Virus record (IMG/VR): IMGVR_UViG_3300045988_182320
DNA length: 39,937 bases
Strand: one strand, 5' to 3'
From: a virus
Lineage: Duplodnaviria > Heunggongvirae > Uroviricota > Caudoviricetes
In this document: piece by piece, positions 499 to 25,828 of the stretch
How the letters are laid out: each line of letters begins with the position of its first letter
Position numbering within the stretch: position 1 is the stretch's first letter
Notes under the pieces: generated by a model
Told to the model about the DNA's origin: nothing
The model's database searches: none
What the model saw: only the letters and a program-made list of their open reading frames with translations
Translations under genes and position numbers: made by a program

Positions 499-2100
499 CT
501 ATAGCATGGAACCCGTGGCGATGTAGCCATCAGCCTGAGGGTATTTCTCCATGCCAATCATGAGCGTGTCGTAGGCATCGGAGCCATCGGTGCGAGCCTC
601 CAACTTATCCTCCTCGGTCTCAGCCAGCTTCTCGCCTCGCTTATCCTTCTTGCCGTTGTAGACCCCGGCCAGGCGGATGGAGATGAGCAGGTCTTCGTTG
701 TTCTCGCTGTTGATCATCGAGCGATGCTCAGCCTTGCCGAGGAACATGCGGTTGAGCAGAAGCATCTTTTCGAGATGTCCCATCGGGTTGCCCAGATAGG
801 CCTCGTTGACATACCAGCCATGGTCGGTGAGGTAGTCGGTGATGAAGGTATGGAAGTCATCGTTCATCAGGGCGTAGTTGTTGCCCACGAAGGTGGAGTC
901 GTAGTAGAAGTTGACCTCTTTGCACCGATGGTACTCATAGTACTGCATGAACTTGTCGAGCAGGGCTGGCAGCTTCTCCTCATACTTCACGAAGATGCTC
1001 TTGAGGCAGCGTGCCTCGCCCCGCAGGTTGTCTTGTCCGACGGCTATCCAGTTGATGAGGGCGTTGGCATCGAAGGCGATGCAGAGCGGACGGTCGGGGT
1101 CAACGTCGGCATCCATTCTGGAATCTACATGCTTGAGCTTGTCGATGTCGTAGCCCAAGCCATCGAGGTAGGCGAGGTTGGGCGCCGTGTATAGGTTGGC
1201 ATCCCTGAGGTTGGAGTAGAAGCCATCGAGCGAGATGGAAGGTCGCTTGCACATGATGGAGGTCTGGAAGGTGAGGGCAGGGAGGTCTCGCTTCATCTGC
1301 TTGATGAACTCCATGCCGAGCACCTCGATGTTATAGACCGATGAGTACTCTTTATAGAAGAGTGCCTTGGAGCGCAGTTGCGCCAGGAGCTGACCAATCT
1401 CTCGGAGTCGGCGCTGGGCATAGCCTGAGACATGGCCCGAGGTCTTGATGCGGTTGCGTATGTCATACTCCTCTACCACGAGCGAGGCGATGGCGTCGAT
1501 GAGCAGCTGGTCGCAGTCTTTCTTGTAGTTGAGGAACCAGGAGCCCTTCTTGGTCACGGGCATATCAGAGGTGATGAGCATGCCATGGTGGTAGTAGTGC
1601 TGGCCGAAGAGGTTGACGTTGCCTCGATTGGCAGGGAAGGTCTCGTCTTTGAGCTGTTCGAAGTTGATGAACTTCGCCTCGTCGATGTCGAGGTAGTCGA
1701 GCGAGAGGGAGTTGGAGGTACCCTTGCGGTCTTGCGAGATGATGGTACCGATGGAGCCGTTATAGAAAGAGATGGTGTTCTCCCAGTTGCTGGGCGGTAT
1801 GACCGGGTCGGGCCATCCCAGTTTTTTGGGAGGCTTGACCCCGATGAGATAATGCTTGCCCCGGTGGAAGCCCCATCGCTCCCAGTGCTGAAGCATCGAC
1901 GGTATGGTGTTGGTGAGGCATCGCTTGGTGTTGGCGGATACGAAGCCGCCGTTGCTGCCAGGCATGCGCTGCATGTTGCGCAGGTTGAAGGTGGCGTGGA
2001 GAATGCTCTTGCCGATGCCTCGACCGCCCACGACCACGTTGTCGCGGGCGGAGATGAGGTTGACCTCCATCTGGGCTGGGTTGAGATATTGATCTATCAT
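499..2100 (-). CDS. terL: Terminase large subunit
   Basis: 533 aa; N-terminal Walker A-like VVGGRGIGKS, Walker B-like LDYLDIDEA, C-terminal acidic nuclease-like region; ATG at 2098-2100; last gene of the minus-strand operon. Confidence 0.8.
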   Translation of the reverse strand: MIDQYLNPAQMEVNLISARDNVVVGGRGIGKSILHATFNLRNMQRMPGSNGGFVSANTKRCLTNTIPSMLQHWERWGFHRGKHYLIGVKPPKKLGWPDPVIPPSNWENTISFYNGSIGTIISQDRKGTSNSLSLDYLDIDEAKFINFEQLKDETFPANRGNVNLFGQHYYHHGMLITSDMPVTKKGSWFLNYKKDCDQLLIDAIASLVVEEYDIRNRIKTSGHVSGYAQRRLREIGQLLAQLRSKALFYKEYSSVYNIEVLGMEFIKQMKRDLPALTFQTSIMCKRPSISLDGFYSNLRDANLYTAPNLAYLDGLGYDIDKLKHVDSRMDADVDPDRPLCIAFDANALINWIAVGQDNLRGEARCLKSIFVKYEEKLPALLDKFMQYYEYHRCKEVNFYYDSTFVGNNYALMNDDFHTFITDYLTDHGWYVNEAYLGNPMGHLEKMLLLNRMFLGKAEHRSMINSENNEDLLISIRLAGVYNGKKDKRGEKLAETEEDKLEARTDGSDAYDTLMIGMEKYPQADGYIATGSML

Positions 2101-6057: not shown

Positions 6058-7083
6058 TTATGCGAACTGATTTAAAGCATCCAACACTTGATCTGAGCAG
6101 AAATCCTCGACCTTGGTGTCATCGACAGCAGTGTGCGTGTCGCCACCAGGCTCTCCCTCCAGATCCTTCACTTTATCCTTCAGGTCATCTCTCTCCTTTT
6201 CGAGATTCTTGACCTGAGTCTCTAACTCCTTCTTCTCATCCTTGACCTTCTGAAGCTCTGTGTCTTTGTCGGTCACGGCCTTGGAGTCGGCAGCAATCTT
6301 ATCCTCCAGCTTCTGCATCTGCTCCTGAGAGATGGTGCAGTCCTTGGCTGAATCCTCTGCCTCAATGCCCTCGATGTTGAGGACATTGTTGATGTGAGTC
6401 CATTTTTTAATCATATTAATAATTTTGTTTTGAGATTTATCTTTACCGAAAATTCGGTCGATGAAGCTTGGCTTTTTATCATACCAAGAGTTGACGACCT
6501 CAGGGAGCACCGGAAGGTTGTTGTACTTGATGAAGTCTTGTGTCTGCTCTGTGATGTCAGCAGGTTTGCCATCCATGGACTCATCGACGAGACCCAGTTC
6601 GATGCACTCATCGACGGTGTGCCACTTTGCCTCGGACATCACCTTGACGATGTCCTCGTGCTTCTTGCCCGAGCGATCGCAGTAAACGTTGGCGATGATG
6701 TTGTCGATTTTCTGCTGGTTCTCTTGCTGTTTTTGAAGCTGCTCGATGAGCGAGCCTATCTGCTCCTCGTTGAGCGCAGACCACACAAACTGCTCGGTAG
6801 AGCACTTGTGTACCAGGAGCAAGCTATATTTGCTCATGCGAATCTTGCTGGCACCCATCGCACAGATGGTGGCAGCAGAGGCAGAGAAGCCCGCCTGGAA
6901 GTCAACGGTCACATCGCCATGGGACTTGAACATCTGGCAGATGGCGAGACCTGCGGAGACCTCACCACCCAAGGAGTCGATGGCAACATCGACGTGCTTG
7001 TCTTTGTTAGCCTTGAGAATGTCGCGGACCATGAGTTTTGTCCACGAGCCAATATATCCAGTGATAGAAATTTGGTACTTCAT
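6058..7083 (-). CDS. Prohead protease (ClpP/S14-like) fused to a coiled-coil scaffold-like C-terminus
   Basis: N-terminal IDSLGGEVSAGLAIC...GFSASAATICAMGASKIRMSKYSLLLVH resembles the ClpP Ser/His active-site regions; C-terminal half is K/E/D-rich coiled coil (KVKDEKKELETQVKNLEKERDDLKDKVKDLE). Confidence 0.8.
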   Translation of the reverse strand: MKYQISITGYIGSWTKLMVRDILKANKDKHVDVAIDSLGGEVSAGLAICQMFKSHGDVTVDFQAGFSASAATICAMGASKIRMSKYSLLLVHKCSTEQFVWSALNEEQIGSLIEQLQKQQENQQKIDNIIANVYCDRSGKKHEDIVKVMSEAKWHTVDECIELGLVDESMDGKPADITEQTQDFIKYNNLPVLPEVVNSWYDKKPSFIDRIFGKDKSQNKIINMIKKWTHINNVLNIEGIEAEDSAKDCTISQEQMQKLEDKIAADSKAVTDKDTELQKVKDEKKELETQVKNLEKERDDLKDKVKDLEGEPGGDTHTAVDDTKVEDFCSDQVLDALNQFA

Positions 7084-12933: not shown

Positions 12934-13311
12934 ATGTTTAATGGTCAGATAATCAGAAAGTTAATGTCGGATGCTGGCTTAACTAAAAAAGAGTTTGAAA
13001 GACGTATGTTCGGTAGTAAATCGACCGACCTCAACCATTTGGAAAAAGCGAAGAATCTTCGCAGTGACACTCTCGAACGTCTGCGTGAGGTGTTGAAGTG
13101 CTCTATGGATGACTTCTTTACAGCACCCTCATGGGCTGAGAACGGAAAGGGGACAGTCGTAGGCTCTAACAATGTGCTGTCAACAGTAGCCATCGGCAAC
13201 GAAGTGATGGAAGCCCAATATCTCAAGGAGTTGCTCTTGGAGAAGGACAAACGCATCAGCACTTTGGAAAATTATATCAAGCTTCTGGAGACTAACTTAA
13301 ATAAGGACTAA
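12934..13311 (+). CDS. XRE/Cro-CI-type helix-turn-helix transcriptional regulator (candidate repressor)
   Basis: 125 aa; N-terminal IIRKLMSDAGLTKKEFERRMFGS...SDTLERLREVL matches an HTH_XRE-like helix-turn-helix; divergent from the early operon and upstream of the integrase. Confidence 0.65.
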   Translation: MFNGQIIRKLMSDAGLTKKEFERRMFGSKSTDLNHLEKAKNLRSDTLERLREVLKCSMDDFFTAPSWAENGKGTVVGSNNVLSTVAIGNEVMEAQYLKELLLEKDKRISTLENYIKLLETNLNKD

Positions 13312-13535: not shown

Positions 13536-14699
13536 ATGACTGCAAAAGAAATTGATTTTTTGAGCTCGCGTGAAATAGTAGGTTTCACGCTGCCTGTGTT
13601 GCATACCAAGGGCGGTTACTGGTATGTTGACTTTACTGCCTTTGACCCTGTTTCGGGTCGGATGAAGCGCAAGAAATATATGCTTAATAGGTACAAGACT
13701 GACCACAAGAAGCGTATGATGGGTACCTTGCTTATCCACAATATCACGGCAAAATTGACCGCTGGATGGAATCCTTGGGTGAATGCCGACAAGTCGAGAC
13801 AATTCACCGAAATACCAATTATCTTTAGTCGTTATCGTGATTATATTAAGTCGATGACCGACAAAAAGTCGATGAAGGAAAAGACCTCTATCGACTACCT
13901 CAGCCGCCTCAAGACTCTGGAGTCTTTCATCACTGAGTGCAAGAGTGTCAAATATGCCTATCAGATTGACCGTGCCTTCGCCATCGACTTCTTAGACCAC
14001 CTGATGTATGACCGTGATGTGAGTGCTACCACAAGAAACAACTATCGCTCTTGGCTTGTCTCCTTCGGCACTTGGCTTATGGATAGAAAATATATCAGCG
14101 AGAACCCTGCCATCGACATCAGAAACATCGCTCAGAAGGAGAAGTTCAGAGACCCTTTGACCGAGGGCGCGCTTAAGAAGCTGAAGACTTATCTCTATGA
14201 TAACAACAGACATTTTCTCTTGGCTTGCCTCTTTGAATATTATACCTTTATCCGACCGAATGAGTTGACGCAGATAAGAATCAAAGATGTGTCGATTGCT
14301 GACCAGACGGTCTTTATCAGTTCTGCCATCAGCAAGAACCGTAAGGACGGACTTGTGGCATTGAACGATGAAATCTTGAAGCTCATGATAGAGCTGAAGA
14401 TATTTGAGCATCCGGGACATTGTTTTATCTTTGGCAAGGGGTTGAAGCCTGGTGAGGAGCGAGCACCTTATAACCAACTGAGAGTAGAGTGGGGCAAGAT
14501 GCGAGATGCTATTGGGTTTCCGAAGGAGTATCAGTTTTATAGCCTGAAGGACACTGGCATCAGGGATTTGGCGAACGCACAGGGTATCGTGGTCGCCAAG
14601 GATCAGGCACGCCACTCTGATATATCTGTGACGAATCGATATATCAAGAACCAGATGAAAGTGAACGAGGAGACCAAGCACTTCAAAGGTGGGCTTTAG
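13536..14699 (+). CDS. int: Tyrosine site-specific integrase
   Basis: 387 aa; C-terminal ARHSDISVTNRYI (His and catalytic Tyr box) and upstream HCFIFGKGL region typical of phage tyrosine recombinases; stop tag at 14697-14699. Confidence 0.85.
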   Translation: MTAKEIDFLSSREIVGFTLPVLHTKGGYWYVDFTAFDPVSGRMKRKKYMLNRYKTDHKKRMMGTLLIHNITAKLTAGWNPWVNADKSRQFTEIPIIFSRYRDYIKSMTDKKSMKEKTSIDYLSRLKTLESFITECKSVKYAYQIDRAFAIDFLDHLMYDRDVSATTRNNYRSWLVSFGTWLMDRKYISENPAIDIRNIAQKEKFRDPLTEGALKKLKTYLYDNNRHFLLACLFEYYTFIRPNELTQIRIKDVSIADQTVFISSAISKNRKDGLVALNDEILKLMIELKIFEHPGHCFIFGKGLKPGEERAPYNQLRVEWGKMRDAIGFPKEYQFYSLKDTGIRDLANAQGIVVAKDQARHSDISVTNRYIKNQMKVNEETKHFKGGL

Positions 14700-16688: not shown

Positions 16689-19600
16689 TTATTTGTTTGA
16701 CTTCATTTTTTGATATTGGCTCCATTGGCGGTCGAAGCCATCGGGGCCGGTGATGACCACGTATGACTTGATGCCAGCATCGAGCTGTTGGTTGAGTCGG
16801 TCGATGGTGTTATGCACGCTATCGAGGGATGCGCCCATCTGTTCGGTGTCGCCACCTGTGACGTTGACCACTGGGGCGACCACGGCTGCGCTGCCTGTGC
16901 CCATGGCACGGCTCACGTCTTGTGCGGTGAGCGAGGCGACAGTGTTGTTGCGCTGCGCCATATCGATGAGCTGCAGGGCAGGGAGGAGCTGAGGATTGTT
17001 GACGGCGTTGTGGTTGGCGACGAACTCGCCAGCGTGAACCACGCCAGCCTCTTTCTTGTAATTGCCAGGACCAGTGAAACCACCCTCGTAATAGCCAGCC
17101 GCCTCTGCCTGGTGCTGCTTTTTGATTGTTGCTATCTGGAGCATGCCCGCTGCGGTGGCGAGACCTGCGGCGATAGGACCAAGGATGTGACCCACCACTG
17201 GGATGGCTGCGGCTGATGAGTAGGCGTTGATGGCAGCCATGGCGGTTGAAGCTATGGCTTGTGCGATCTCTATCTTCATCGCCTTTTTGTTGGCCTTGCT
17301 CTTGGCTGCAGCCACCTCTTTGTCTCGCTTCGCCTCGAGTCGCTTTTTCTTGGCTGAGTTGTTGCCAGCGGCAGAAATCTGCTTATCGTAGTTTTTCTCG
17401 ATCTTGGCGACCTCTAGGTCTGAGCAGGCCTGAGAGTAGGCGGAGGCAGCGCCCATCATCGTGTTGATGCTGCTGAAGGCAGCGCCAGCGATGGAGGCTA
17501 TCTCTTGATAGGTCTCTTTGTTCATCTGCTTTTTGGCATCTAGATAAGCCTGTTCGCTGATGTTGCCATCTCTACGTAGCTTGTCTAGATTATCGTTGAC
17601 CATCTTTTGCTGTTGGATGGCTGCGATGGCACCACCTGCGATTGTGGCGAGGTTGTCGCTGCCCATGGCATTACTGTTGTCGCCGTTGCCCTTGGTCATC
17701 TTTTTGGCGGTGTCGAGGGCGGTGTTGGCATCCTCTTTGCGCTGCTCGTCGGCGGTAGGCTTGTATGAGGCGTATTTGTTGGCGATGCCCATCTTTGTGC
17801 GCTGGTATTCCTCCTCTCTGATGAGACCTGCCTTGTAGATGGCTTCGAGCCCCTGCAGCTCTAGTTGCATCTGCTCTTCGTTGCCGAGCTTGCCGTATTC
17901 TTGGCGCAGCTGAAGGAGTTGTTCGTCGTGTTGCTTCTGAAGGTCGTATTTGCGTTGCTGTTGGGTCAGCTCTCGCTCTTTCTCGATCTGGGCGTACTCG
18001 TCAGATGAGGAGAGGTAGAGGGCTTGCTTTTTGTTGAGATAGTCCTGGTATGAGAGAAAGAGAGCCTCGTTGACGGCATCCTCATTGTGATAGAGGTTGG
18101 AGTCTTTGTTGTAGTAGTCTGCATTGAGCTTCATTTCTTTTTTCTGTCGCTCGGTCTCCAGGGCTTCGAGGTCGGCGGTCTGCTTCTTCTCGTAGTCGGC
18201 GGCGATATTCTCTTTCTCGGCGCTCAATCGCTTGTACTCTTCGCTCTCTGCCTCGCCATACTTTTTGAGGATGTCGAGGCGAGCCTGAAGCCCCTGCTCT
18301 TTGATATTCTTCATCTTCTCGTTGTATTCGGCGAGTCGAATCTGCCCCGTAGCGTAGAGTGTCTTGGCATCTAGCTCTTCGGCTTGGTTGGCTTTCTTGG
18401 CATCGTCTAGCTCTTTTTTCATGTCGGCCTTGCGCTTTGCCTCTGCCTTGCGAGCCGCAGCCTCACGCTTCTTTTTCTCCTTCTCGGCAGCCTTGCGCTC
18501 TTTCTCGGTCATGGTATGACCAGAGGAAGGGGTGACGGGTGTCTCAGTAGTTGCGCTATTGTTTAGTAAATTCTTCTTTACAGTCTTGTTGTACTGTTTC
18601 TGTAAATTAACGTTTTTCTCTAATTGCTGATTATAGAAATTCTCTTCAGCATTGACTTTTTTTTGCAGGCTTAGGTTTGCCTGTAGTCTTTGCGTATGAA
18701 TTTGCTTTTGCTTCTCGTTGCTCTTCAGTGCCTCGTTTTGTTCGATGAGCTGACCTGTCCATCCATCAGCCACGGCATTGCTCTCATATTGCTTAGGATG
18801 AGCCTTGCGCTCAGCATCGACAGCCTTCAGAGAATATCGTATGCGGCTCTCTTTTTGTTTGAGTTTCAGTTTCTTTTTATTGATTTCCACTTTGCGTTCA
18901 TAGATAGCTTCTGCCATGGCAGCATTCTCTAGCTCCTTGATGTAGTTTTGGATGGCAATCTGATTGTCGTTATACAACTTGCCCTCTTTGGAGATAGAGG
19001 CGTGATATTCTGGGACGAGCTTTTGCATATTTGCGATAGCTTGCTTGCGCTCGTCAACGGTATAGGCATTGGAGTGGATAACCTTGTTGAGCATATCGAC
19101 CTTGTTGCGCTCATCGAGGGTAGCATCAGACACTTTTTTGGCGAGGCTGGCTTGAGCCTCTGCCACAGCTCTGTTGTTTTTAGCCTCTTGCGTGTTGTTG
19201 CGCATCGCCTCATTGTAAGATGTTATGGCTTTGTATGCCCCATAGGCAGCCACGCCCACAACGGTGATTACCGTGGCGAGGGCAGCCCATGGATTGGTGA
19301 GACTGGCTAGGCGTGCCGCCCTCATCACCACGATGTAGCCCTGTATGCCTTTTGTGAGATAAGCCCATGTGGCTTGCAGTGCCACTAAGGCAGCACGCAA
19401 AAGGGTAGAAGTTGCAGCACAAGCTTTATCGACAGCTGAAGCGTATTGCACAGCGGCAGATTTAATCTTAATAGCGATTGTCTCCTTGTACCAGAGAGTA
19501 GTACAAACAGCGATGGCTGTTGACAGCACGGCTATTTGTTTGGCATAGGTGACGGTGAAGGTGATGAGTGTGGACATGACCTTTATAGTCAGGCTGAACG

Positions 19601-21035
19601 ACGTGATGCCATATTTCATGGCAGGGATGAGTTTCTCGCCAAGTTCGATGGTGAGGTCTTGGAATCGCTTCTTGGCCTTGTCTAGCTCTGCCTGAACTGT
19701 TGTGTTTTGGGTGTTGAACTCATTGAGCACACTGGTACCATCGGCATAAGACTTGGTGGCGATGTCTTGTGCCTCCCTAACTTGGTCGAGGTGTGTAGCT
19801 ACGGCGGAGAGCACGCCCACGGCACGGGTACCGTTGAGCTGCATCTCTTCGAACATCGGTGCCATCTCTGTGAAACCTCCCTTCGACTTCATCGCTTGCA
19901 TGAACTTCATCAAGCCCTCGTTGGCGTTGGTCTTCATCAGGTTGGAGAACTCCTTGACCTGCATGCCCGCTATCTTGGCAAACTTGGCTGGCTCTTGGTA
20001 CATTTTTGTGATGAGCTGTGAGAAGACTGTGGCGGAAGTCGCCTCCTCTTGCATGTTTTGGTCGAGGGCAGAGGCGAGACCCATCAGCTGTGCCTGGGTC
20101 ATGCCGGCCTGGATGCCGACACCTGAGAGGTCGGCGGTGAAATCGACGATGTAGCCAGCGTTTGCAGATGAGCTTTGTGCCAGCTCATTGACGGCGGAAC
20201 CTGTGGCGAGCATCGCACCACGAAGGCCTTTGGTCTTATCCTCACCAAACATCTGGGCGAGCTTGCCGATTTTATCGACCGCCCCCTTGCCGAGGTCATC
20301 GCCGAGGGCGACATTGATTTTGTCGGCACCATCAACGAACTCCTCGATCATCTCTTTGCTGGTGATGCCGAGGCGACCGGCAGAGCCAGCCAGCTCGTTG
20401 AGCTGCTCACGAGCTGTGCGGGTATCCATGCGCTTGAAGTCCTCGTTCATCTGATGAACCTGTTCGTCGGTCTGACCGGTGTATTTGCGCACGTCTGCCA
20501 TCGACTCCTCCATGTCGGCATAGGCTTGGGCTGCAGCTCTCAAAGTAAGAGTGAGTGTGGTGAGACTGCCCAGTATCTGGGTGAAGGCACCCCAGTTTTT
20601 GTTAAGACCATCCCACATTCTAGAGAACAAACTTCTGGAAGCTTTACCTTCGTCGTTGATGTGCTGCATCTCTGCTCGCACTTGCTTTAATTGCTTTTGC
20701 AGTTTTTTCCATTCGTCTGAGTTGCGCTTGATGGCACCGCTTTTCAACTCTCTGTTGAGAGCCTTGGCGACTAGTTGCAGCTCCTTGTATGATGCAGAAG
20801 AAAGATTGTTGAGAACTTGGTTAACCTTCTCTTGGCTAGTCATGTATGCTTTTGTCTCAGCCTTTAATCTCTTTATCTGTCGTTCGAGGGCTGTTGTTGA
20901 CTCGCCCTTAGCATAAGCCTCGTCTCTGGCTTTTTGCACTTCTTTCAGCTTGTTTTGCAATTCGTTGAGTTTATCCTTAGCCTCTTTGGTGTCAAGAATA
21001 ACTCTGCTAACATGGGTATCTGTATTTGTTGCCAT
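16689..21035 (-). CDS. Tail tape measure protein (putative)
   Basis: 1448 aa; long K/E/A/Q-rich coiled-coil stretches, central hydrophobic segments, Gly-rich C-terminal region (GGFTGPGNY...GVVHAGEFV); ATG at 21033-21035. Confidence 0.7.
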   Translation of the reverse strand: MATNTDTHVSRVILDTKEAKDKLNELQNKLKEVQKARDEAYAKGESTTALERQIKRLKAETKAYMTSQEKVNQVLNNLSSASYKELQLVAKALNRELKSGAIKRNSDEWKKLQKQLKQVRAEMQHINDEGKASRSLFSRMWDGLNKNWGAFTQILGSLTTLTLTLRAAAQAYADMEESMADVRKYTGQTDEQVHQMNEDFKRMDTRTAREQLNELAGSAGRLGITSKEMIEEFVDGADKINVALGDDLGKGAVDKIGKLAQMFGEDKTKGLRGAMLATGSAVNELAQSSSANAGYIVDFTADLSGVGIQAGMTQAQLMGLASALDQNMQEEATSATVFSQLITKMYQEPAKFAKIAGMQVKEFSNLMKTNANEGLMKFMQAMKSKGGFTEMAPMFEEMQLNGTRAVGVLSAVATHLDQVREAQDIATKSYADGTSVLNEFNTQNTTVQAELDKAKKRFQDLTIELGEKLIPAMKYGITSFSLTIKVMSTLITFTVTYAKQIAVLSTAIAVCTTLWYKETIAIKIKSAAVQYASAVDKACAATSTLLRAALVALQATWAYLTKGIQGYIVVMRAARLASLTNPWAALATVITVVGVAAYGAYKAITSYNEAMRNNTQEAKNNRAVAEAQASLAKKVSDATLDERNKVDMLNKVIHSNAYTVDERKQAIANMQKLVPEYHASISKEGKLYNDNQIAIQNYIKELENAAMAEAIYERKVEINKKKLKLKQKESRIRYSLKAVDAERKAHPKQYESNAVADGWTGQLIEQNEALKSNEKQKQIHTQRLQANLSLQKKVNAEENFYNQQLEKNVNLQKQYNKTVKKNLLNNSATTETPVTPSSGHTMTEKERKAAEKEKKKREAAARKAEAKRKADMKKELDDAKKANQAEELDAKTLYATGQIRLAEYNEKMKNIKEQGLQARLDILKKYGEAESEEYKRLSAEKENIAADYEKKQTADLEALETERQKKEMKLNADYYNKDSNLYHNEDAVNEALFLSYQDYLNKKQALYLSSSDEYAQIEKERELTQQQRKYDLQKQHDEQLLQLRQEYGKLGNEEQMQLELQGLEAIYKAGLIREEEYQRTKMGIANKYASYKPTADEQRKEDANTALDTAKKMTKGNGDNSNAMGSDNLATIAGGAIAAIQQQKMVNDNLDKLRRDGNISEQAYLDAKKQMNKETYQEIASIAGAAFSSINTMMGAASAYSQACSDLEVAKIEKNYDKQISAAGNNSAKKKRLEAKRDKEVAAAKSKANKKAMKIEIAQAIASTAMAAINAYSSAAAIPVVGHILGPIAAGLATAAGMLQIATIKKQHQAEAAGYYEGGFTGPGNYKKEAGVVHAGEFVANHNAVNNPQLLPALQLIDMAQRNNTVASLTAQDVSRAMGTGSAAVVAPVVNVTGGDTEQMGASLDSVHNTIDRLNQQLDAGIKSYVVITGPDGFDRQWSQYQKMKSNK

Positions 21036-21080: not shown

Positions 21081-21119
21081 TAATAAAAATACGAGACCGT
21101 ATGTATTGCGGTCTCGTAT
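21081..21119 (-). terminator. Rho-independent terminator
   Basis: Perfect 11-bp stem atacgagaccg (21089-21099) / cggtctcgtat (21109-21119), 9-nt loop, followed on the minus strand by tttttatta. Confidence 0.6.
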
Positions 21120-21461
21120 TTACTTGGTTATCTCTTGCTCTTTTTTAAAGAACTCGTATGCAAGATTGTTTGCATCCCAAACAAGATATTTCTTGTTGGT
21201 GTTTCTGAGTGTCTGTTTATCACCTGTTATGGAGTTTGCTATCGTGACGCAGAAGAATCTGCCTCGCTTTACGATTTCGGTTGCCGTATTGTTTGGCGAT
21301 GCCAGTCTTATAGGCTCGTCAAAATTCTCATCAAAAGTATCAAACAATGGTTCGGAAGCCACTGTGGCTGGGCAAGAACTATTGCCAAGCTTGTCGAGAC
21401 CTTTGAGGAGTGCAACTGTTATAATCGCTAGTATCCAGCATCCAAATATAGTCGTAATCAT
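21120..21461 (-). CDS. Small membrane protein (hypothetical)
   Basis: Start placed at ATG 21459-21461 (MITTIFGCWILAIITVALL..., N-terminal hydrophobic helix); the track ORF extends further upstream across a -7 box at 21491-21498. Confidence 0.4.
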   Translation of the reverse strand: MITTIFGCWILAIITVALLKGLDKLGNSSCPATVASEPLFDTFDENFDEPIRLASPNNTATEIVKRGRFFCVTIANSITGDKQTLRNTNKKYLVWDANNLAYEFFKKEQEITK

Positions 21462-21490
21462 AATTTGCAAGTTTATTATTATCTTTGTTG

Positions 21491-21498
21491 CAAATTTA
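21491..21498 (-). promoter_or_regulatory. Bacteroidota-type -7 promoter box
   Basis: caaattta on plus strand (TAaaTTTG on minus), 30 nt upstream of ATG 21461. Confidence 0.4.
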
Positions 21499-21683
21499 AT
21501 AATAATATTTGGAATATGCAAGTATTTTGTGTTAAATCTTTGATTTGTTTTGCGGTATGGTGGAAAAATATTATATTTGCAGTGGCAATTTAATTTTAGA
21601 AAGTATGAATAAAGATTTTGCTTTAATATTGGTAAACATAATATGCGCCTTAACGGCATTTGTTTGTATGATAATCACTATTG

Positions 21684-22040
21684 TTATTTCATTAGTGAGA
21701 TTATAATAGTAATACACATAGATGCGATTGTAATAATCGTGCAAATGATATTGATATATTCTTTGTATTCTTTCAGAAGTGTCAGTCTCTCCTGTCTTCT
21801 CTTCTGTTTGTTATAGCCTTTCTTGGCAGCATTCTCCCCTTGTGGTGTCAGCTTATAATAAGCTTCTCCCCACTCATAAACAAGTCCCTCGTCTTGAAGT
21901 GATTGTAGAACATCGTATGGCTCAATGTCATATCCATACGTATCATTTATAGCACTGTGTACATCGTCTTTGTTAGGACTACCTTCTAAGAACTGGCTTA
22001 AAATGAAATCTGCGATTTCTATTTGCTTTTTAGTCATCAT
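21684..22040 (-). CDS. Hypothetical tail-anchored membrane protein
   Basis: About 118 aa from ATG (MMTKKQIEIADF...), C-terminal hydrophobic helix IICTIITIASMCITIIISL; the track ORF starts with GTG at 22124 and would run through an upstream hairpin. Confidence 0.4.
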   Translation of the reverse strand: MMTKKQIEIADFILSQFLEGSPNKDDVHSAINDTYGYDIEPYDVLQSLQDEGLVYEWGEAYYKLTPQGENAAKKGYNKQKRRQERLTLLKEYKEYINIICTIITIASMCITIIISLMK

Positions 22041-22092
22041 AATCAAATAAAAACGGCTCGTGCATCGGGAGGGCAGTCCTTCAGCACGAGCC
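22041..22092 (-). terminator. Hairpin + T-run (terminator or leader attenuator)
   Basis: Perfect 9-bp stem ggctcgtgc (22055-22063) / gcacgagcc (22084-22092), 20-nt loop, followed on the minus strand by tttttatttg, just before ATG 22040. Confidence 0.5.
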
Positions 22093-22175
22093 ATTAACAG
22101 CTGTATATCTTTATGTCTTGCCACTCATGAGACCTGCCCGAATCATGTTTGACATCATTGTCTTTAAATATGGTG

Positions 22176-22183
22176 CAAAGATA
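22176..22183 (-). promoter_or_regulatory. Bacteroidota-type -7 promoter box
   Basis: caaagata on plus strand (TAtcTTTG on minus), upstream of the 22055-22092 hairpin and of ATG 22040. Confidence 0.4.
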
Positions 22184-22223
22184 ACGCTTTTATCTGAAAG
22201 CACCAAATGATTTTACGAAAACT

Positions 22224-22835
22224 TTATTTCACCACCTCTATGTATCTCGAGTAATCAATCTTGGAGTGGGGATTGTGGCTGACTATCTGCACCTGATAGC
22301 CCTTGGTGCCCCATCGCCACCAGAGGAACTTGTGGCGGTAGGTGCGGCTCACGATGGTCGTCAGGCTGTCTCGAGACGAGTACTGGCACTCTCGCTTGGG
22401 GATGTCGATATGGAGGGAGAGCCATTGGTCTCGGTAGGTGTAGATGGAATCGGGGATGCCGGAACCAGCCACGGCGGCGGTCGGTTCGGGCGTGAGATAG
22501 ACCGTATCGGCGGTGGTTGACGAAGCTGTGTGGATAGACTGCACATCTTTGAGCCGCACTTTGAGGTCTTTGATGAGCTTGGTATCGGCGAGGTGGAGCT
22601 TTTGCAGCTCGTCGTATTTCGACTGAAGGGCGTTGAATATGGCGACATTGAGAGTGTCTCTCACGTTGGCATATTCAATGTCGTAGTTGAGGTTGGCAAC
22701 GTTGTAGCTCTGTCGGTCGAGGTCTGCCTGAAGCTGCTCGCACTTGTTGGCGGAGTGTATGAATGCGACTGCGGTCACGATGAGCAGGGCTGCCAGAAGC
22801 TGGATGATAATCTTGGGTGTAATCTTTTTTGTCAT
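22224..22835 (-). CDS. Membrane-anchored coiled-coil protein (possible spanin or lysis accessory)
   Basis: Start placed at ATG 22833-22835 (MTKKITPKIIIQLLAALLIVTAVAFIHS, N-terminal TM) followed by a coiled-coil-like region; immediately downstream of the amidase. Confidence 0.3.
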   Translation of the reverse strand: MTKKITPKIIIQLLAALLIVTAVAFIHSANKCEQLQADLDRQSYNVANLNYDIEYANVRDTLNVAIFNALQSKYDELQKLHLADTKLIKDLKVRLKDVQSIHTASSTTADTVYLTPEPTAAVAGSGIPDSIYTYRDQWLSLHIDIPKRECQYSSRDSLTTIVSRTYRHKFLWWRWGTKGYQVQIVSHNPHSKIDYSRYIEVVK

Positions 22836-23580: not shown

Positions 23581-23617
23581 ATAATAAAAATACGAGACCG
23601 CCCTAACGATCTCGTAT
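23581..23617 (-). terminator. Rho-independent terminator
   Basis: Stem atacgaga (23590-23597) / tctcgtat (23610-23617), 12-nt loop, followed on the minus strand by ttttt; shares an identical 20-mer with the terminator at 21080-21099. Confidence 0.5.
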
Positions 23618-23631
23618 TATATGTTTAACTG

Positions 23632-24045: not shown

Positions 24046-25620
24046 TCACGTGAATTTATAGAACTTCTTTTTGAATTTATTGTGAAGCTCTGCGACCACG
24101 GTGGAGAAGGGTAGCTCATCACGACAGAAGTCGTTGAGGGCTTGGTCTATCAAGATCTTGGAGCCTGTATAGAGGTAGTGCTCCAGAGGTTGCCATACCT
24201 CGGTGCCGTCTGGCTCCAGGTGGTCGATGATGCGATAGCGTAGGGAGAGGCGCTTCTTGGGCACCTCTTTGGTGACCATGTGGGTGGAGCCGTCCGGGGC
24301 GGTCTCCTCTTGCTGGATGGTCTCCTTCTCTATCACCGAGTCATCGACCTTGTAGTCTATCACTTGAACGAGGAACTTGTTCTCGTCCTGACCCTCACGG
24401 CAGATGATGTCCTCGATGGACTGCTGCTGTGATTTCTCCATACCGTCAAAAGGCACGCGCGCACGGCGAGCCTTGACGAGTTTACCGAATCTTTCCATAC
24501 CGATTTTCTTATATAAGTTTTTAGAGTTTGCGTGGATGCCCAGACCTAGGCGAGAGGCTGCCTTGAGCTGTATCTGGCGGTCTGTGAAGCCCGCCTTGCG
24601 TAAGTTGGCGATCTGTCTGCAGAGGTCGTGCTTGAACCGCTTGCGCAACAGGGCGTGGTCGGCGTAGATGATCTGACCGCAGAAGTCGATGCCATCGCAG
24701 GTGCGGTGGATACCCCAAGACTTATTGATGGATAGGTGCCAGTCACGGGCGAGGTGCATCACGGCAAGCTCTGCCATCAGCCTGAGGAACACCTTATCCT
24801 CGTGGAGGATGTAGATGTTGTCCATGAAGCGGTAATAATGGCGAAGACCTTGGCGGCAGAAGCGCTCGAACCTATCGTTGAGCGACTTCACTCCCCCGCA
24901 TAGCAGTTGAGCTTGCTGCTGAGTGCGACAGGTAACGAGCATGTCGATCACGTAGCGAGCCTGCCAGTAACGGAACTTGTCGGTGTCTTGGAGAATGTCG
25001 AAGCATCGGAGTGCCAGGTAATCGAAGCGGGCGAGGAAGAGCTGACCCAAGAGTTGGGCGAGCTTGACGCCGAGCACGATGCCTGGATTGAAGCTATCGA
25101 CCACCTCGTCGATGAAGGCGAGGAGCTTGCGGTCTTTGATCTTGCGGCGATATTCACTTTTGAGAAGAGCGTGGTCTATGCTCTGAAAATAATGGTGAAT
25201 ATCCATGGGCAAGCAGTAGAAGGTATCTTGCTGTGGCGAGTTGAAGATGTCTCGCTTGACAAGATTATAGAAATAATGGGTGCCCTTGCCCTTGGAACCA
25301 GCCGGACTGTGGCTGTAGAGTGTCTTGCGAAGGTTATCCTCTACAGGTTGCAGGGCAGCGTGCTGGATGACGTGGTCGATAACGGGCAGCTTGTTGACTT
25401 GGCGATGTTTTGGATAGTCGATATCTTTGGCGACATAGGCTGAGGTATGCCAAGTTTGTTGGGTGTAAGCATCGAGCATGCGTCCGATGTTATGGTCTAG
25501 GTTTGCCTCGAATTTTTGGACCGCACGGCGAGACATCTTTTGTCGGGCGTAGTCATAGAATGCCCGACGAAAGTTGTCTAGTGTCTCGACCTGTGGCGAT
25601 ATGTTGCCAAACCTTTTCAT
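24046..25620 (-). CDS. Reverse transcriptase of a diversity-generating retroelement
   Basis: RT motif A LPMDIHHYFQSIDH; motif B-like GIVLGVKLAQLLGQLFL; motif C position reads YYRFMDNIYIL (non-canonical); primer-grip-like DFCGQII; adjacent to the TR/VR pair. Start placed at first ATG 25618-25620; the track ORF begins with GTG at 25689. Confidence 0.8.
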   Translation of the reverse strand: MKRFGNISPQVETLDNFRRAFYDYARQKMSRRAVQKFEANLDHNIGRMLDAYTQQTWHTSAYVAKDIDYPKHRQVNKLPVIDHVIQHAALQPVEDNLRKTLYSHSPAGSKGKGTHYFYNLVKRDIFNSPQQDTFYCLPMDIHHYFQSIDHALLKSEYRRKIKDRKLLAFIDEVVDSFNPGIVLGVKLAQLLGQLFLARFDYLALRCFDILQDTDKFRYWQARYVIDMLVTCRTQQQAQLLCGGVKSLNDRFERFCRQGLRHYYRFMDNIYILHEDKVFLRLMAELAVMHLARDWHLSINKSWGIHRTCDGIDFCGQIIYADHALLRKRFKHDLCRQIANLRKAGFTDRQIQLKAASRLGLGIHANSKNLYKKIGMERFGKLVKARRARVPFDGMEKSQQQSIEDIICREGQDENKFLVQVIDYKVDDSVIEKETIQQEETAPDGSTHMVTKEVPKKRLSLRYRIIDHLEPDGTEVWQPLEHYLYTGSKILIDQALNDFCRDELPFSTVVAELHNKFKKKFYKFT

Positions 25621-25828
25621 AAGCGGTGTAATGTCTGTGTTGAACGGTGTATAAACTGTGTATAGTCTGAATCGTCTGCTTTTGTACACTTGATAACCTT
25701 CGACCGGATGACCGTGTTGTCATCATCTACCAGCTGTCTTATTAATGTGTATGTATCGCCATGGGGCGAGGATTGACCCTGTAATCTCGAAGTGGGAGCA
25801 AACGACCCACGAAGAGATATGTCTGTAA

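What the first reader, a model, noticed from the sequence alone, without database searches (positions are those of the whole stretch)
22041..22183. Promoter box followed by a strong hairpin + T-run in the leader of a small membrane-protein gene
The -7 box at 22176-22183 precedes a perfect 9-bp stem (22055-22063 / 22084-22092) with a T-run that ends 1 nt before ATG 22040. The order promoter - terminator-like hairpin - gene is unusual and would suit a regulated attenuator or antitermination control of the lysis-adjacent membrane-protein genes. Alternatively the hairpin simply terminates the upstream lysis transcript and the -7 box is fortuitous.
Basis: inference. Interest (0 to 1): 0.35.

Follow-up and report, generated by a model that had tools for sequence, protein, structure and literature searches.

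The report
Conserved phage leader RNA with terminator
The promoter and hairpin are real and belong to a previously undescribed, roughly 125-base structured RNA module found in many Segatella/Prevotella gut phages, in which an upstream hairpin loop pairs with the loop of a terminator-like hairpin sitting just before accessory membrane-protein genes.

Summary
On the minus strand, a Bacteroidota-type promoter (TTTG 22207-22204, 20 nt, TATCTTTG 22183-22176) is followed by a hairpin (22092-22055) with a T-rich tract that abuts the ATG at 22040.

It is not a one-off. More than 100 distinct copies occur in Segatella/Prevotella phage and metagenome contigs. All share the same layout: promoter, hairpin P1, linker, hairpin P2 with a U-tract, then a start codon 6-15 nt later. 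At least five unrelated ORF families follow it.

Compensatory changes support both stems. They also support a 6-bp pairing between the P1 loop and the P2 apical hexaloop (GGGCAG:CUGCCC, GGGCAU:AUGCCC, GAGCAG:CUGCUC). Rfam has no match.

In the window the module lies in a ~676-nt accessory insertion that closer relatives lack.

Most likely it is a self-promoted leader whose terminator-like P2 limits transcription into the downstream tail-anchored membrane-protein gene and releases a small structured RNA. The kissing contact would tune termination or RNA stability. Whether read-through is regulated is unknown.

Rejected or unsupported: a fortuitous promoter box, a leader peptide, a classic antiterminator helix, and coding on either strand.

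The parts
22204..22207 (-). -33 box TTTG of the promoter
   Evidence: Conserved at 19-20 nt from the -7 box in 105 of 107 contexts.
22176..22183 (-). -7 box TATCTTTG (TAnnTTTG)
   Evidence: TATCTTTG in 91 and TACCTTTG in 11 of 105 contexts. Matches the S. copri dRNA-seq motif.
22168..22172 (-). Inferred transcription start, 4-8 nt after the -7 box
   Evidence: Inferred from the Bacteroidota promoter geometry. Not mapped.
22119..22154 (-). P1 hairpin: outer stem 22154-22150/22123-22119, inner stem CAUGA 22147-22143 / UCAUG 22130-22126, 12-nt loop 22142-22131
   Evidence: Centroid fold. RNAalifold. 7-8 of 11 pairs show changes on both sides; 88-95% of cells are paired.
22134..22139 (-). P1-loop hexamer GGGCAG, complementary to the P2 apical loop
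   Evidence: 2 of 6 pairs show compensatory changes; 97.7-99% of cells are paired.
22097..22104 (-). Palindrome ACAGCUGU in the linker, conserved in types B to E. Role unknown.
   Evidence: Alignments.
22055..22092 (-). P2 terminator-like hairpin: 9-bp stem, UGAA/CGAU internal loop, GGA 22079-22077 / UCC 22070-22068
   Evidence: z -6.6. 100% paired, with 3 of 9 stem pairs changed on both sides. G.U pairs indicate RNA on this strand.
22071..22076 (-). P2 apical hexaloop CUGCCC, kissing partner of 22139-22134
   Evidence: Only four apical loops were seen in 210 instances when the loop was left free in the search.
22041..22053 (-). U-rich tract UUUUUAUUUGAUU between P2 and the start codon
   Evidence: At least 5 T in the 10 nt after the stem in all 107 contexts.
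22032..22175 (-). Full match to covariance model R1 of the element; the only copy in the window
   Evidence: 118.1 bits, E 1.4e-27.
21684..22040 (-). Downstream 118-aa gene: helical N-terminal domain plus a C-terminal transmembrane anchor
   Evidence: Structure model pLDDT 69.6, no significant fold match.
22111..22158 (-). 15-codon upstream ORF MMSNMIRAGLMSGKT. Not conserved and judged non-functional.
   Evidence: Reduced to MMS* in L083. Four amino-acid replacements in L123. 3-23 codons in the other types (sequences).
21548..22223 (-). Accessory insertion carrying the element, the 118-aa gene and a convergent small ORF. Absent from relatives L003-L057.
21549..21579 (+). Consensus promoter on the opposite strand, for the convergent small ORF
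   Evidence: Conserved in L083, L123 and L084.
21605..21706 (+). Convergent 33-aa single-TM ORF MNKDFALILVNIICALTAFVCMIITIVISLVRL, overlapping the 3' end of the 118-aa gene by 23 nt
   Evidence: L083 has a 33-aa version with conservative replacements.

Best explanation
The finding is one copy of a conserved, self-promoted phage RNA module.

Proposed sequence of events:
1. A host-type (primary sigma) promoter starts transcription near 22170.
2. The transcript folds into hairpin P1 and then hairpin P2.
3. P2 followed by its U-tract behaves as an intrinsic terminator only 6-15 nt before the start codon of an accessory gene. In the window that gene encodes a 118-aa tail-anchored membrane protein.
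4. Most transcripts therefore end at about 22045-22053 as a compact RNA of roughly 125 nt.
5. Only read-through transcripts carry the ORF. These arise from leakiness, or from terminator-resistant late transcription during lytic growth.

P2 thus attenuates expression of a potentially harmful membrane protein from a strong promoter. The six bases of the P1 loop pair with the six bases of the P2 apical loop (a kissing complex). This contact is under selection and most likely tunes termination efficiency and/or stabilises the short RNA.

Shown: the promoter motifs, both hairpins, the loop-loop complementarity with covariation, the U-tract, the fixed position of the start codon, and modular reuse before different genes.

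Inferred: the start site, termination at the U-tract, the attenuating effect, and the role of the kissing contact.
For: - Promoter consensus is enriched in the window. It is conserved with diverged spacers in 105 of 107 contexts and matches S. copri dRNA-seq motifs.
- P2 stability: z -6.6.
- Covariation in 65 distinct copies: 97.6% of cells paired against 32-49% for slid controls; 12 pairs changed on both sides; 0 of 500 shuffles reach the observed values.
- Same result on 17 diverse representatives, where the kissing helix was not part of the model used for alignment.
- Three matched loop pairs; 64 of 76 unique copies have a perfect 6/6 complement.
- With the apical loop left free in the search, only MUGCYC loops occur.
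- The ATG lies 6-15 nt after P2 in about 95% of instances and heads at least 5 unrelated ORF families.
- Most loci have a separate terminator upstream of the promoter, so the module's promoter is the only one available to these ORFs.
- Homologous genes that lack the module still sit directly behind a terminator hairpin and T-run (L084-086; L166 and L215).
- The element is non-coding on both strands.
Against: - No RNA-end data exist, so the start site and termination are both inferred.
- P2 has internal non-Watson-Crick elements, and the generic terminator scan did not call it.
- A simple attenuator would not need P1 or the kissing contact. Variants lacking P1 persist in several contigs (L114, L145, L146).
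- Some copies have mismatched loops (L098, L103b, L110, L154, the L107 type).
- The short RNA could have its own trans function, with the cis effect secondary.
- P2 lying 6-15 nt from the AUG could also act on translation rather than transcription.
Confidence: 0.5

Rival explanations
1. A stand-alone trans-acting small RNA gene (promoter, about 125-nt RNA, terminator). Its main job would be regulation of other phage or host RNAs or proteins, and read-through into the next ORF would be incidental.
For: - It has its own consensus promoter and a terminator-like 3' end at a typical sRNA length.
- It survives where the downstream gene has been deleted (L098, L107 type).
- There are often two copies per phage.
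- The middle part varies while the ends are conserved.
Against: - The start codons of five unrelated ORF families always lie 6-15 nt after the U-tract with no promoter of their own, which points to a cis role.
- The two most accessible loops pair with each other rather than presenting a free seed.
- No target is known.
Confidence: 0.25
2. A regulated switch. Read-through at P2 would be turned on or off by a factor acting on the P1-P2 kissing complex or on the conserved internal loop of P2. The factor could be a phage or host protein, a matching RNA from a co-resident copy, or a small ligand.
For: - Nucleotides in the P2 internal loop are invariant (UGAAGGA...UCCNGAU).
- The kissing contact covaries.
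- Co-resident copies usually carry different matched loop pairs (9 of 15 loci).
- Terminator-embedded and two-hairpin riboswitches exist (own knowledge).
Against: - No match to any Rfam family.
- No supported alternative antiterminator helix.
- The middle region is too variable for an aptamer.
- Downstream genes are unrelated in sequence, so a common ligand logic is lacking.
- No antiterminator or NusG-like gene was recognised.
Confidence: 0.15
3. A type III toxin-antitoxin or Abi-like arrangement. The RNA encoded before the terminator would neutralise the protein encoded after it, or the convergent membrane protein.
For: - The order promoter, ncRNA, terminator, gene is the same as in ToxIN (own knowledge).
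- The prophage AbiF-RCd22 system pairs a toxic protein with an associated non-coding RNA that neutralises it and down-regulates its expression (PMC12373285).
- The neighbouring genes encode small membrane proteins.
Against: - No tandem repeats.
- No PADLOC hit for the 118-aa or 195-aa proteins.
- The element is deleted while the 195-aa gene stays intact (L166, L215, L210, L232).
- The 118-aa homologue occurs without the element (L084-086).
- The element occurs with at least five different partners.
Confidence: 0.05
4. A plain terminator of the upstream lysis operon with a chance promoter-like box, or a DNA-level feature in which the two hexamers are half-sites of a protein operator.
For: - In the window no other terminator lies between the DUF6549 stop (22224) and the hairpin, so P2 probably also ends lysis transcripts.
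- Inverted hexamers would covary for a DNA-binding dimer too.
Against: - The promoter boxes are conserved across 32 different spacers.
- A separate terminator lies upstream of the promoter in most loci.
- G.U pairs in P1 and P2 are strand-specific, which indicates RNA.
- The hexamers sit exactly in the two hairpin loops, at variable spacing between types.
Confidence: 0.04

Closest known systems
Lambdoid late unit PR' - 6S RNA - tR' with Q antitermination (own knowledge)
   Same: A constitutive promoter is followed within 100-200 nt by a strong intrinsic terminator. This gives a short RNA unless polymerase reads through into the genes behind it.
   Different: Here the unit sits after the lysis genes, inside an accessory insertion, and precedes single small genes rather than the late operon. 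No Q-like gene or qut-type site was identified. The short RNA has a conserved tertiary contact.
Transcription attenuators and terminator-type expression platforms (trp leader, T-box, riboswitches; own knowledge)
   Same: A 5' leader containing an intrinsic terminator immediately upstream of the regulated ORF.
   Different: No conserved leader peptide, no statistically supported antiterminator helix, and no match to any Rfam family.
Guanidine-II (mini-ykkC) riboswitch (own knowledge)
   Same: Two hairpins joined by a variable linker whose loops contact each other, located just before the start codon.
   Different: Guanidine-II loops are ACGR tetraloops that pair only with ligand. Here a 5-12-nt loop and a hexaloop form six Watson-Crick pairs, and the second hairpin is followed by a U-tract.
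Type III TA and the AbiF-RCd22 system of a C. difficile prophage (PMC12373285)
   Same: A prophage locus pairing a structured non-coding RNA with a protein gene whose expression it affects. ToxIN-type systems have the gene order promoter, RNA, terminator, gene (own knowledge).
   Different: No repeats or abiF motifs. Partner genes are interchangeable and can exist without the RNA.
Six-base loop-loop (kissing) complexes such as TAR-TAR* and ColE1 RNA I/RNA II (own knowledge)
   Same: Fully complementary hairpin loops of 6-7 nt forming a short inter-loop helix.
   Different: Those act between two molecules. Here both loops lie on one transcript, and one of them is the apical loop of a terminator-like hairpin.
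Phage morons (own knowledge)
   Same: An autonomous insertion with its own promoter between core modules, absent from close relatives.
   Different: The terminator precedes rather than follows the cargo gene, and the promoter-leader part is itself a conserved structured RNA.

Membership tests
Bacteroidota primary-sigma promoter (-33 TTTG / -7 TAnnTTTG) | TAnnTTTG -7 box | tested here: met
   TATCTTTG at 22183-22176. Conserved in 105 of 107 contexts.
Bacteroidota primary-sigma promoter (-33 TTTG / -7 TAnnTTTG) | TTTG about 19-21 nt upstream of the -7 box | tested here: met
   TTTG at 22207-22204 with a 20-nt spacer. Spacing is 19-20 nt in all 105.
Bacteroidota primary-sigma promoter (-33 TTTG / -7 TAnnTTTG) | A transcript 5' end a few nt downstream | not testable with these tools
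   Needs dRNA-seq or 5' RACE. The element's sequence is not in the supplements of the S. copri dRNA-seq paper.
Intrinsic (Rho-independent) terminator | Stable G+C-rich hairpin | tested here: met
   -23.8 kcal/mol, z -6.6. 100% paired with compensatory changes.
Intrinsic (Rho-independent) terminator | U-tract directly after the stem | tested here: met
   GUUUUUAUUU in the window. 5-8 T in the first 10 nt in all 107 contexts.
Intrinsic (Rho-independent) terminator | Short loop (3-8 nt), uninterrupted stem | tested here: inconclusive
   The apical loop is 6 nt only if the GGA/UCC helix and the 4x4 internal loop stack. The generic scan did not list it.
Intrinsic (Rho-independent) terminator | RNA 3' ends in the U-tract | not testable with these tools
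   Needs Term-seq or in vitro transcription.
Leader-peptide attenuator (trp type) | Conserved short leader ORF with regulatory codons | tested here: not met
   The upstream ORF is 15 codons in the window, MMS* in L083, and 3-23 codons in other types with no conserved sequence (sequences).
Leader-peptide attenuator (trp type) | Antiterminator helix competing with the terminator's 5' arm | tested here: not met
   Pairing of the segment 3' of the hexamer with the P2 5' arm is no better than background (p 0.04-0.9) and is absent in types B and E.
Any described RNA family (Rfam 15) | Covariance-model match | tested here: not met
   No hit at gathering score. Only chance-level hits at E about 6.
Type III toxin-antitoxin RNA antitoxin | Tandem direct repeats processed by the toxin | tested here: not met
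   No tandem repeats in 21500-22300.
Type III toxin-antitoxin RNA antitoxin | Obligate linkage to a toxin gene | tested here: not met
   The element and its neighbouring genes occur independently of each other.
Lambda Q-type late promoter/terminator unit | Located at the head of the late operon, with a Q-family antiterminator encoded nearby | tested here: not met
   It lies after the lysis genes in an insertion missing from relatives. PHROGs found no antiterminator among 38 window proteins; many of these have no annotation, so absence is not proven.
Guanidine-II riboswitch | Two hairpins with ACGR tetraloops | tested here: not met
   The loops are UUCGGGCAGGUC and CUGCCC. No Rfam hit.

The most novel reading that the evidence does not exclude
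A new class of phage riboregulator. An upstream hairpin kisses the apical loop of an intrinsic terminator and thereby sets or switches read-through into accessory membrane-protein genes. The exchangeable six-base loop pairs (GGGCAG:CUGCCC, GGGCAU:AUGCCC, GAGCAG:CUGCUC) would act as specificity codes. These codes would keep co-resident copies orthogonal, or allow RNA cross-talk between prophages.
Probability: 0.2. Interest if true: 0.75.

Novelty: new variant of a known kind. Interest (0 to 1): 0.58.

Why it matters
Segatella (Prevotella) copri is among the most abundant human gut bacteria. Almost nothing is known about gene control in its phages.

This element is a candidate new structured RNA family. 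It is short, abundant in gut viromes, supported by covariation, and absent from Rfam and from annotated phage records.

If the loop-loop contact with a terminator loop controls termination, it would be a compact, programmable mechanism with three natural specificity variants. That would matter for RNA biology, and for building expression tools in Bacteroidota, which lack Shine-Dalgarno-based control.

It also marks a mobile promoter-leader cassette that drives prophage accessory membrane proteins next to the lysis genes. That is a good entry point for finding out what those proteins do.

Tried and rejected
1. **Leader peptide.** The 15-codon ORF at 22158-22111 is truncated to MMS* in L083 and carries four amino-acid replacements in L123. 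Other types have 3-23 codons with no conserved sequence.
2. **Classic three-hairpin attenuator.** Truncated-transcript folds suggested that the P1 3' arm pairs with the P2 5' arm. A background and shuffle test showed this extension is not better than chance (p 0.04-0.9), and it is missing in types B, E and A_L185.
3. **Protein coding through the element.** Every frame on both strands has stops in all six types. Public gene calls of 130-136 aa that start inside P2 look like mis-calls.
4. **Known RNA families, tRNA-like genes, tandem repeats.** None found.
5. **RNA antitoxin for the convergent 195-aa membrane protein.** The element is deleted in L166, L215, L210 and L232 while that gene is intact.
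6. **A 5'-end/U-tract closing helix.** It appears in some single-sequence folds but not in the consensus folds.
7. **More diverged copies among fetched loci.** The covariance model found none beyond the five or six types, and only one copy in the window.
8. **Function of the 118-aa protein.** No Pfam or PADLOC hit. The AlphaFold model had pLDDT 69.6, and Foldseek against PDB gave nothing below E = 3.
9. **Literature.** No paper describing this element was found, and its sequence is not in the S. copri transcriptome supplements.

Full report
**Setting.** Almost all genes in the window run on the minus strand. The window is a temperate phage:
- integrase at 13536-14699 (+) and a repressor-like gene at 12934-13311 (+);
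- large terminase at 499-2100 (-) and head protease at 6058-7083 (-);
- tape-measure protein at 16689-21035 (-).

Reading the minus strand around the finding gives this order:
- RT-17 RNA plus a 547-aa reverse transcriptase;
- a 135-aa gene, then a terminator hairpin;
- a holin-like gene (phrog_8278), an Amidase_2 endolysin, and a DUF6549 protein ending at 22224;
- the 183-nt intergenic region of the finding;
- a 118-aa gene (22040-21684) with a C-terminal membrane anchor;
- an AT-rich spacer, a 113-aa membrane protein gene (21461-21120), a second terminator hairpin, and the tape-measure gene.

- The -7 box TATCTTTG is at 22183-22176 and is partnered by a -33 TTTG at 22207-22204, 20 nt upstream.
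- The full Bacteroidota consensus occurs six times in the window against 0.34 expected.
- It agrees with the motifs found upstream of mapped start sites in Segatella copri (bioRxiv 10.1101/2024.04.05.588293).
- The 9-bp stem 22092-22084/22063-22055 is exact.
- The 20 nt between the arms form a 4x4 internal loop (UGAA/CGAU, with potential tandem G.A pairs; own inference), a 3-bp helix GGA/UCC and a hexaloop CUGCCC.
- The hairpin is far more stable than shuffled versions (-23.8 kcal/mol, z -6.6).
- The T-rich tract runs to the ATG at 22040. That ATG is the true start, because a 59%-identical homologue begins at the same Met.

**The region is an insertion.** Seventy-nine viral loci encode a DUF6549 homologue, but only near-identical contigs share the intergenic sequence. 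In relatives (L003-L057) DUF6549 is followed directly by a conserved promoter and the homologue of the 113-aa gene. That junction reappears in the window at about 21547. So 22223-21548 is a 676-nt accessory cassette. It contains the promoter-hairpin unit, the 118-aa gene, and on the other strand a consensus promoter (21549-21579) with a 33-aa single-TM ORF (21605-21706) that overlaps the 3' end of the 118-aa gene.

**The promoter-hairpin unit is a widespread module.**
- A diverged copy of the 118-aa gene (L083, 79% protein identity) has the same layout. Its boxes are conserved, its spacer is diverged, three stem pairs are changed on both sides, the loop is conserved, and the small upstream ORF is broken.
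- Scans with the loop sequence recovered copies in IMG/VR contigs, metagenome contigs, and genomes of Segatella copri OF03-3 and an uncultured Prevotella.
- Sampling through an unrelated neighbour gene, and a scan that left the apical loop free, gave further types.
- In 107 unique contexts, 105 have the -33/-7 boxes at 19-20 nt spacing with 32 different spacers. The -7 box lies 77-93 nt before P2, or 20 nt in deletion variants. Every copy has at least five T in the ten bases after the stem.
- A covariance model finds exactly one copy in the window, at 22032-22175 (118 bits).
- Rfam has no matching family. The only GenBank phage record with the element is unannotated.

**Structure.** All types fold into an upstream hairpin P1 and the terminator-like hairpin P2.

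| Measure | 65 distinct copies | 17 diverse representatives |
|---|---|---|
| Cells forming a standard pair | 97.6% | 95.3% |
| Same, partners slid by 1-3 columns | 32-49% | 33-47% |
| Pairs changed on both sides | 12 | 13 |
| Shuffles reaching the observed percentage paired, number of pairs or cells changed on both sides, or covariation score | 0 of 500 | 0 of 500 |
| P1 pairs with double changes | 7 of 11 | 8 of 11 |
| P2 outer stem | 100% paired, 3 pairs with double changes | 100% paired, 3 pairs with double changes |

G.U pairs appear in both stems, as expected for RNA on this strand.

The new finding is a third helix. The hexamer in the P1 loop is the exact complement of the P2 apical hexaloop, and the two covary:
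- GGGCAG:CUGCCC (window, types C and D);
- GGGCAU:AUGCCC (type A and L083);
- GAGCAG:CUGCUC (types B and E).

Of 76 unique copies, 64 have a perfect 6/6 match. The helix is 97.7-99% paired, with two of six pairs changed on both sides. It was not part of the model used to align the 17 representatives. When the loop was unconstrained in the search, only four loops appeared in 210 instances. The mismatched copies look like recombinants between co-resident copies. P1 stems differ in sequence between types but keep a hairpin that presents the hexamer.

**What follows the module.**
- An ATG lies 6-15 nt after P2 in about 95% of instances.
- It heads at least five unrelated ORFs: the 118-aa protein and a 129-aa protein with a similar two-part layout, an 81-aa tail-anchored protein, and several families of about 30-aa acidic peptides.
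- These are usually convergent with a membrane-protein gene of 30-195 aa that has its own promoter.
- Most loci have a separate terminator upstream of the module's promoter. The downstream ORF can therefore only be transcribed from this promoter, through P2.
- Where the module is absent, the same ORFs still sit immediately behind a terminator hairpin and T-run (L084-086, L166, L215).
- Within the window, two nearly identical terminator hairpins also sit between co-directional genes. So hairpin-then-gene is common in this phage. What is special here is the promoter upstream of the hairpin and the conserved RNA architecture.

**Mechanism.** The best-supported reading is a self-promoted leader. 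Its P2 and U-tract terminate most transcripts, releasing a compact RNA of about 125 nt and limiting expression of the downstream membrane protein. The P1-P2 kissing contact would tune termination or protect the RNA.
- I put about 0.9 on promoter plus structured RNA plus terminator-like hairpin being real.
- I put about 0.5 on attenuation being its main role.
- A primarily trans-acting sRNA (0.25) and a factor-regulated switch (0.15) remain open.
- A leader-peptide mechanism, a classic antiterminator helix, a coding region, a type III antitoxin, and a fortuitous promoter box are each contradicted by tests.

**Limits.**
- There are no transcript-end data.
- Cell counts tally sequences, not independent events. 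The copies fall into five or six lineages that also recombine.
- Part of the loop conservation in early scans was imposed by the search pattern. The free-loop scan and the protein-anchored sampling address this.
- The function of every flanking small protein is unknown.

Noticed in passing
window 25672-25773 (-) and 24046-25689 (-): An RT-17 RNA (Rfam RF03020, 59.9 bits) sits directly upstream of, and overlaps the start of, a 547-aa reverse transcriptase. The RT matches phrog_1423 and several PADLOC RT models, including weak hits to defence-associated UG classes. This is a prophage-borne RT with its own ncRNA, just upstream of the lysis genes.
   Followed up: partly
window 21087-21121 and 23589-23618: Two nearly identical terminator-like hairpins (AATACGAGAyCG...CGGTCTCGTATT plus a T-run). 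Each lies between co-directional genes: 135-aa gene to holin, and 113-aa gene to tape measure. The 12-mer occurs 4 times against 0.16 expected.
   Followed up: partly
window 21549-21579 (+) and 21605-21706 (+): A consensus Bacteroidota promoter on the opposite strand drives a 33-aa single-TM ORF (MNKDFALILVNIICALTAFVCMIITIVISLVRL). The ORF is convergent with the 118-aa gene and overlaps it by 23 nt. It is conserved with conservative replacements in L083 and as a 30-aa version in L084. Other phages carry a 195-aa membrane protein (MEKIISNK...) in its place. It could be a type I toxin-like peptide or an exclusion factor.
   Followed up: partly
L103 3038-3139, L189/L230, L120 and many other loci: A family of about 30-aa acidic, Trp-containing ORFs follows the element in most other phages (MKPNYNEDGWPEDP..., MKPTDDDDWIPQ..., MRKIIGYDDDEWSHS...). 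They share an acidic-residues-then-Trp pattern despite diverged sequences. Their 3' ends overlap the convergent 195-aa gene.
   Followed up: no
L237, L242, L245 and other type E loci, just upstream of the -33 box: A perfect inverted repeat ATTTTCCTAA-AAAC-TTAGGAAAAT abuts the promoter of type E copies. It may be an operator for a DNA-binding regulator. No equivalent repeat was noticed in the window copy on reading its sequence.
   Followed up: no
window 22097-22104 (-) and the same position in types B to E: The 8-nt palindrome ACAGCUGU (containing CAGCTG) is conserved in the linker between P1 and P2 in four of five types. Type A has it replaced. Its role is unknown: it could be a mini-hairpin, a dimerisation site or a DNA site.
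   Followed up: no
proteins P0001, P0002, P0005 (public gene calls): Public gene predictions start the 118-aa ORF inside hairpin P2, giving products of 130-136 aa. The extension is not shared by the 59%-identical homologue P0006, so it is probably a start-codon mis-call.
   Followed up: yes
window 21462-21547 (-) and L003-L057 downstream of DUF6549: A second conserved promoter-like region (..ACTTGC..N..TAAATTTGCAAC) and a small membrane or lipoprotein-like gene (21120-21461) follow DUF6549 directly in relatives. This is the ancestral junction that the cassette interrupted.
   Followed up: partly
L107, L111, L138, L150; L098; L114, L145, L146; L166, L215: Several recurrent deletion variants exist. 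(a) The 195-aa gene body is lost between a GGCTCGT microhomology in the gene and the P2 arm. (b) The middle of the element including P1 is lost. (c) The whole element is lost by fusion of the upstream terminator's T-run to the element's T-run. Together they show frequent recombination at these conserved hairpins.
   Followed up: partly
L123 (contig CAVCRI010000337.1): A contig binned as a Lachnospiraceae MAG carries the DUF6549 end, a window-type element and a 162-aa homologue of the 118-aa gene. It is probably a mis-binned Prevotella/Segatella phage contig.
   Followed up: no
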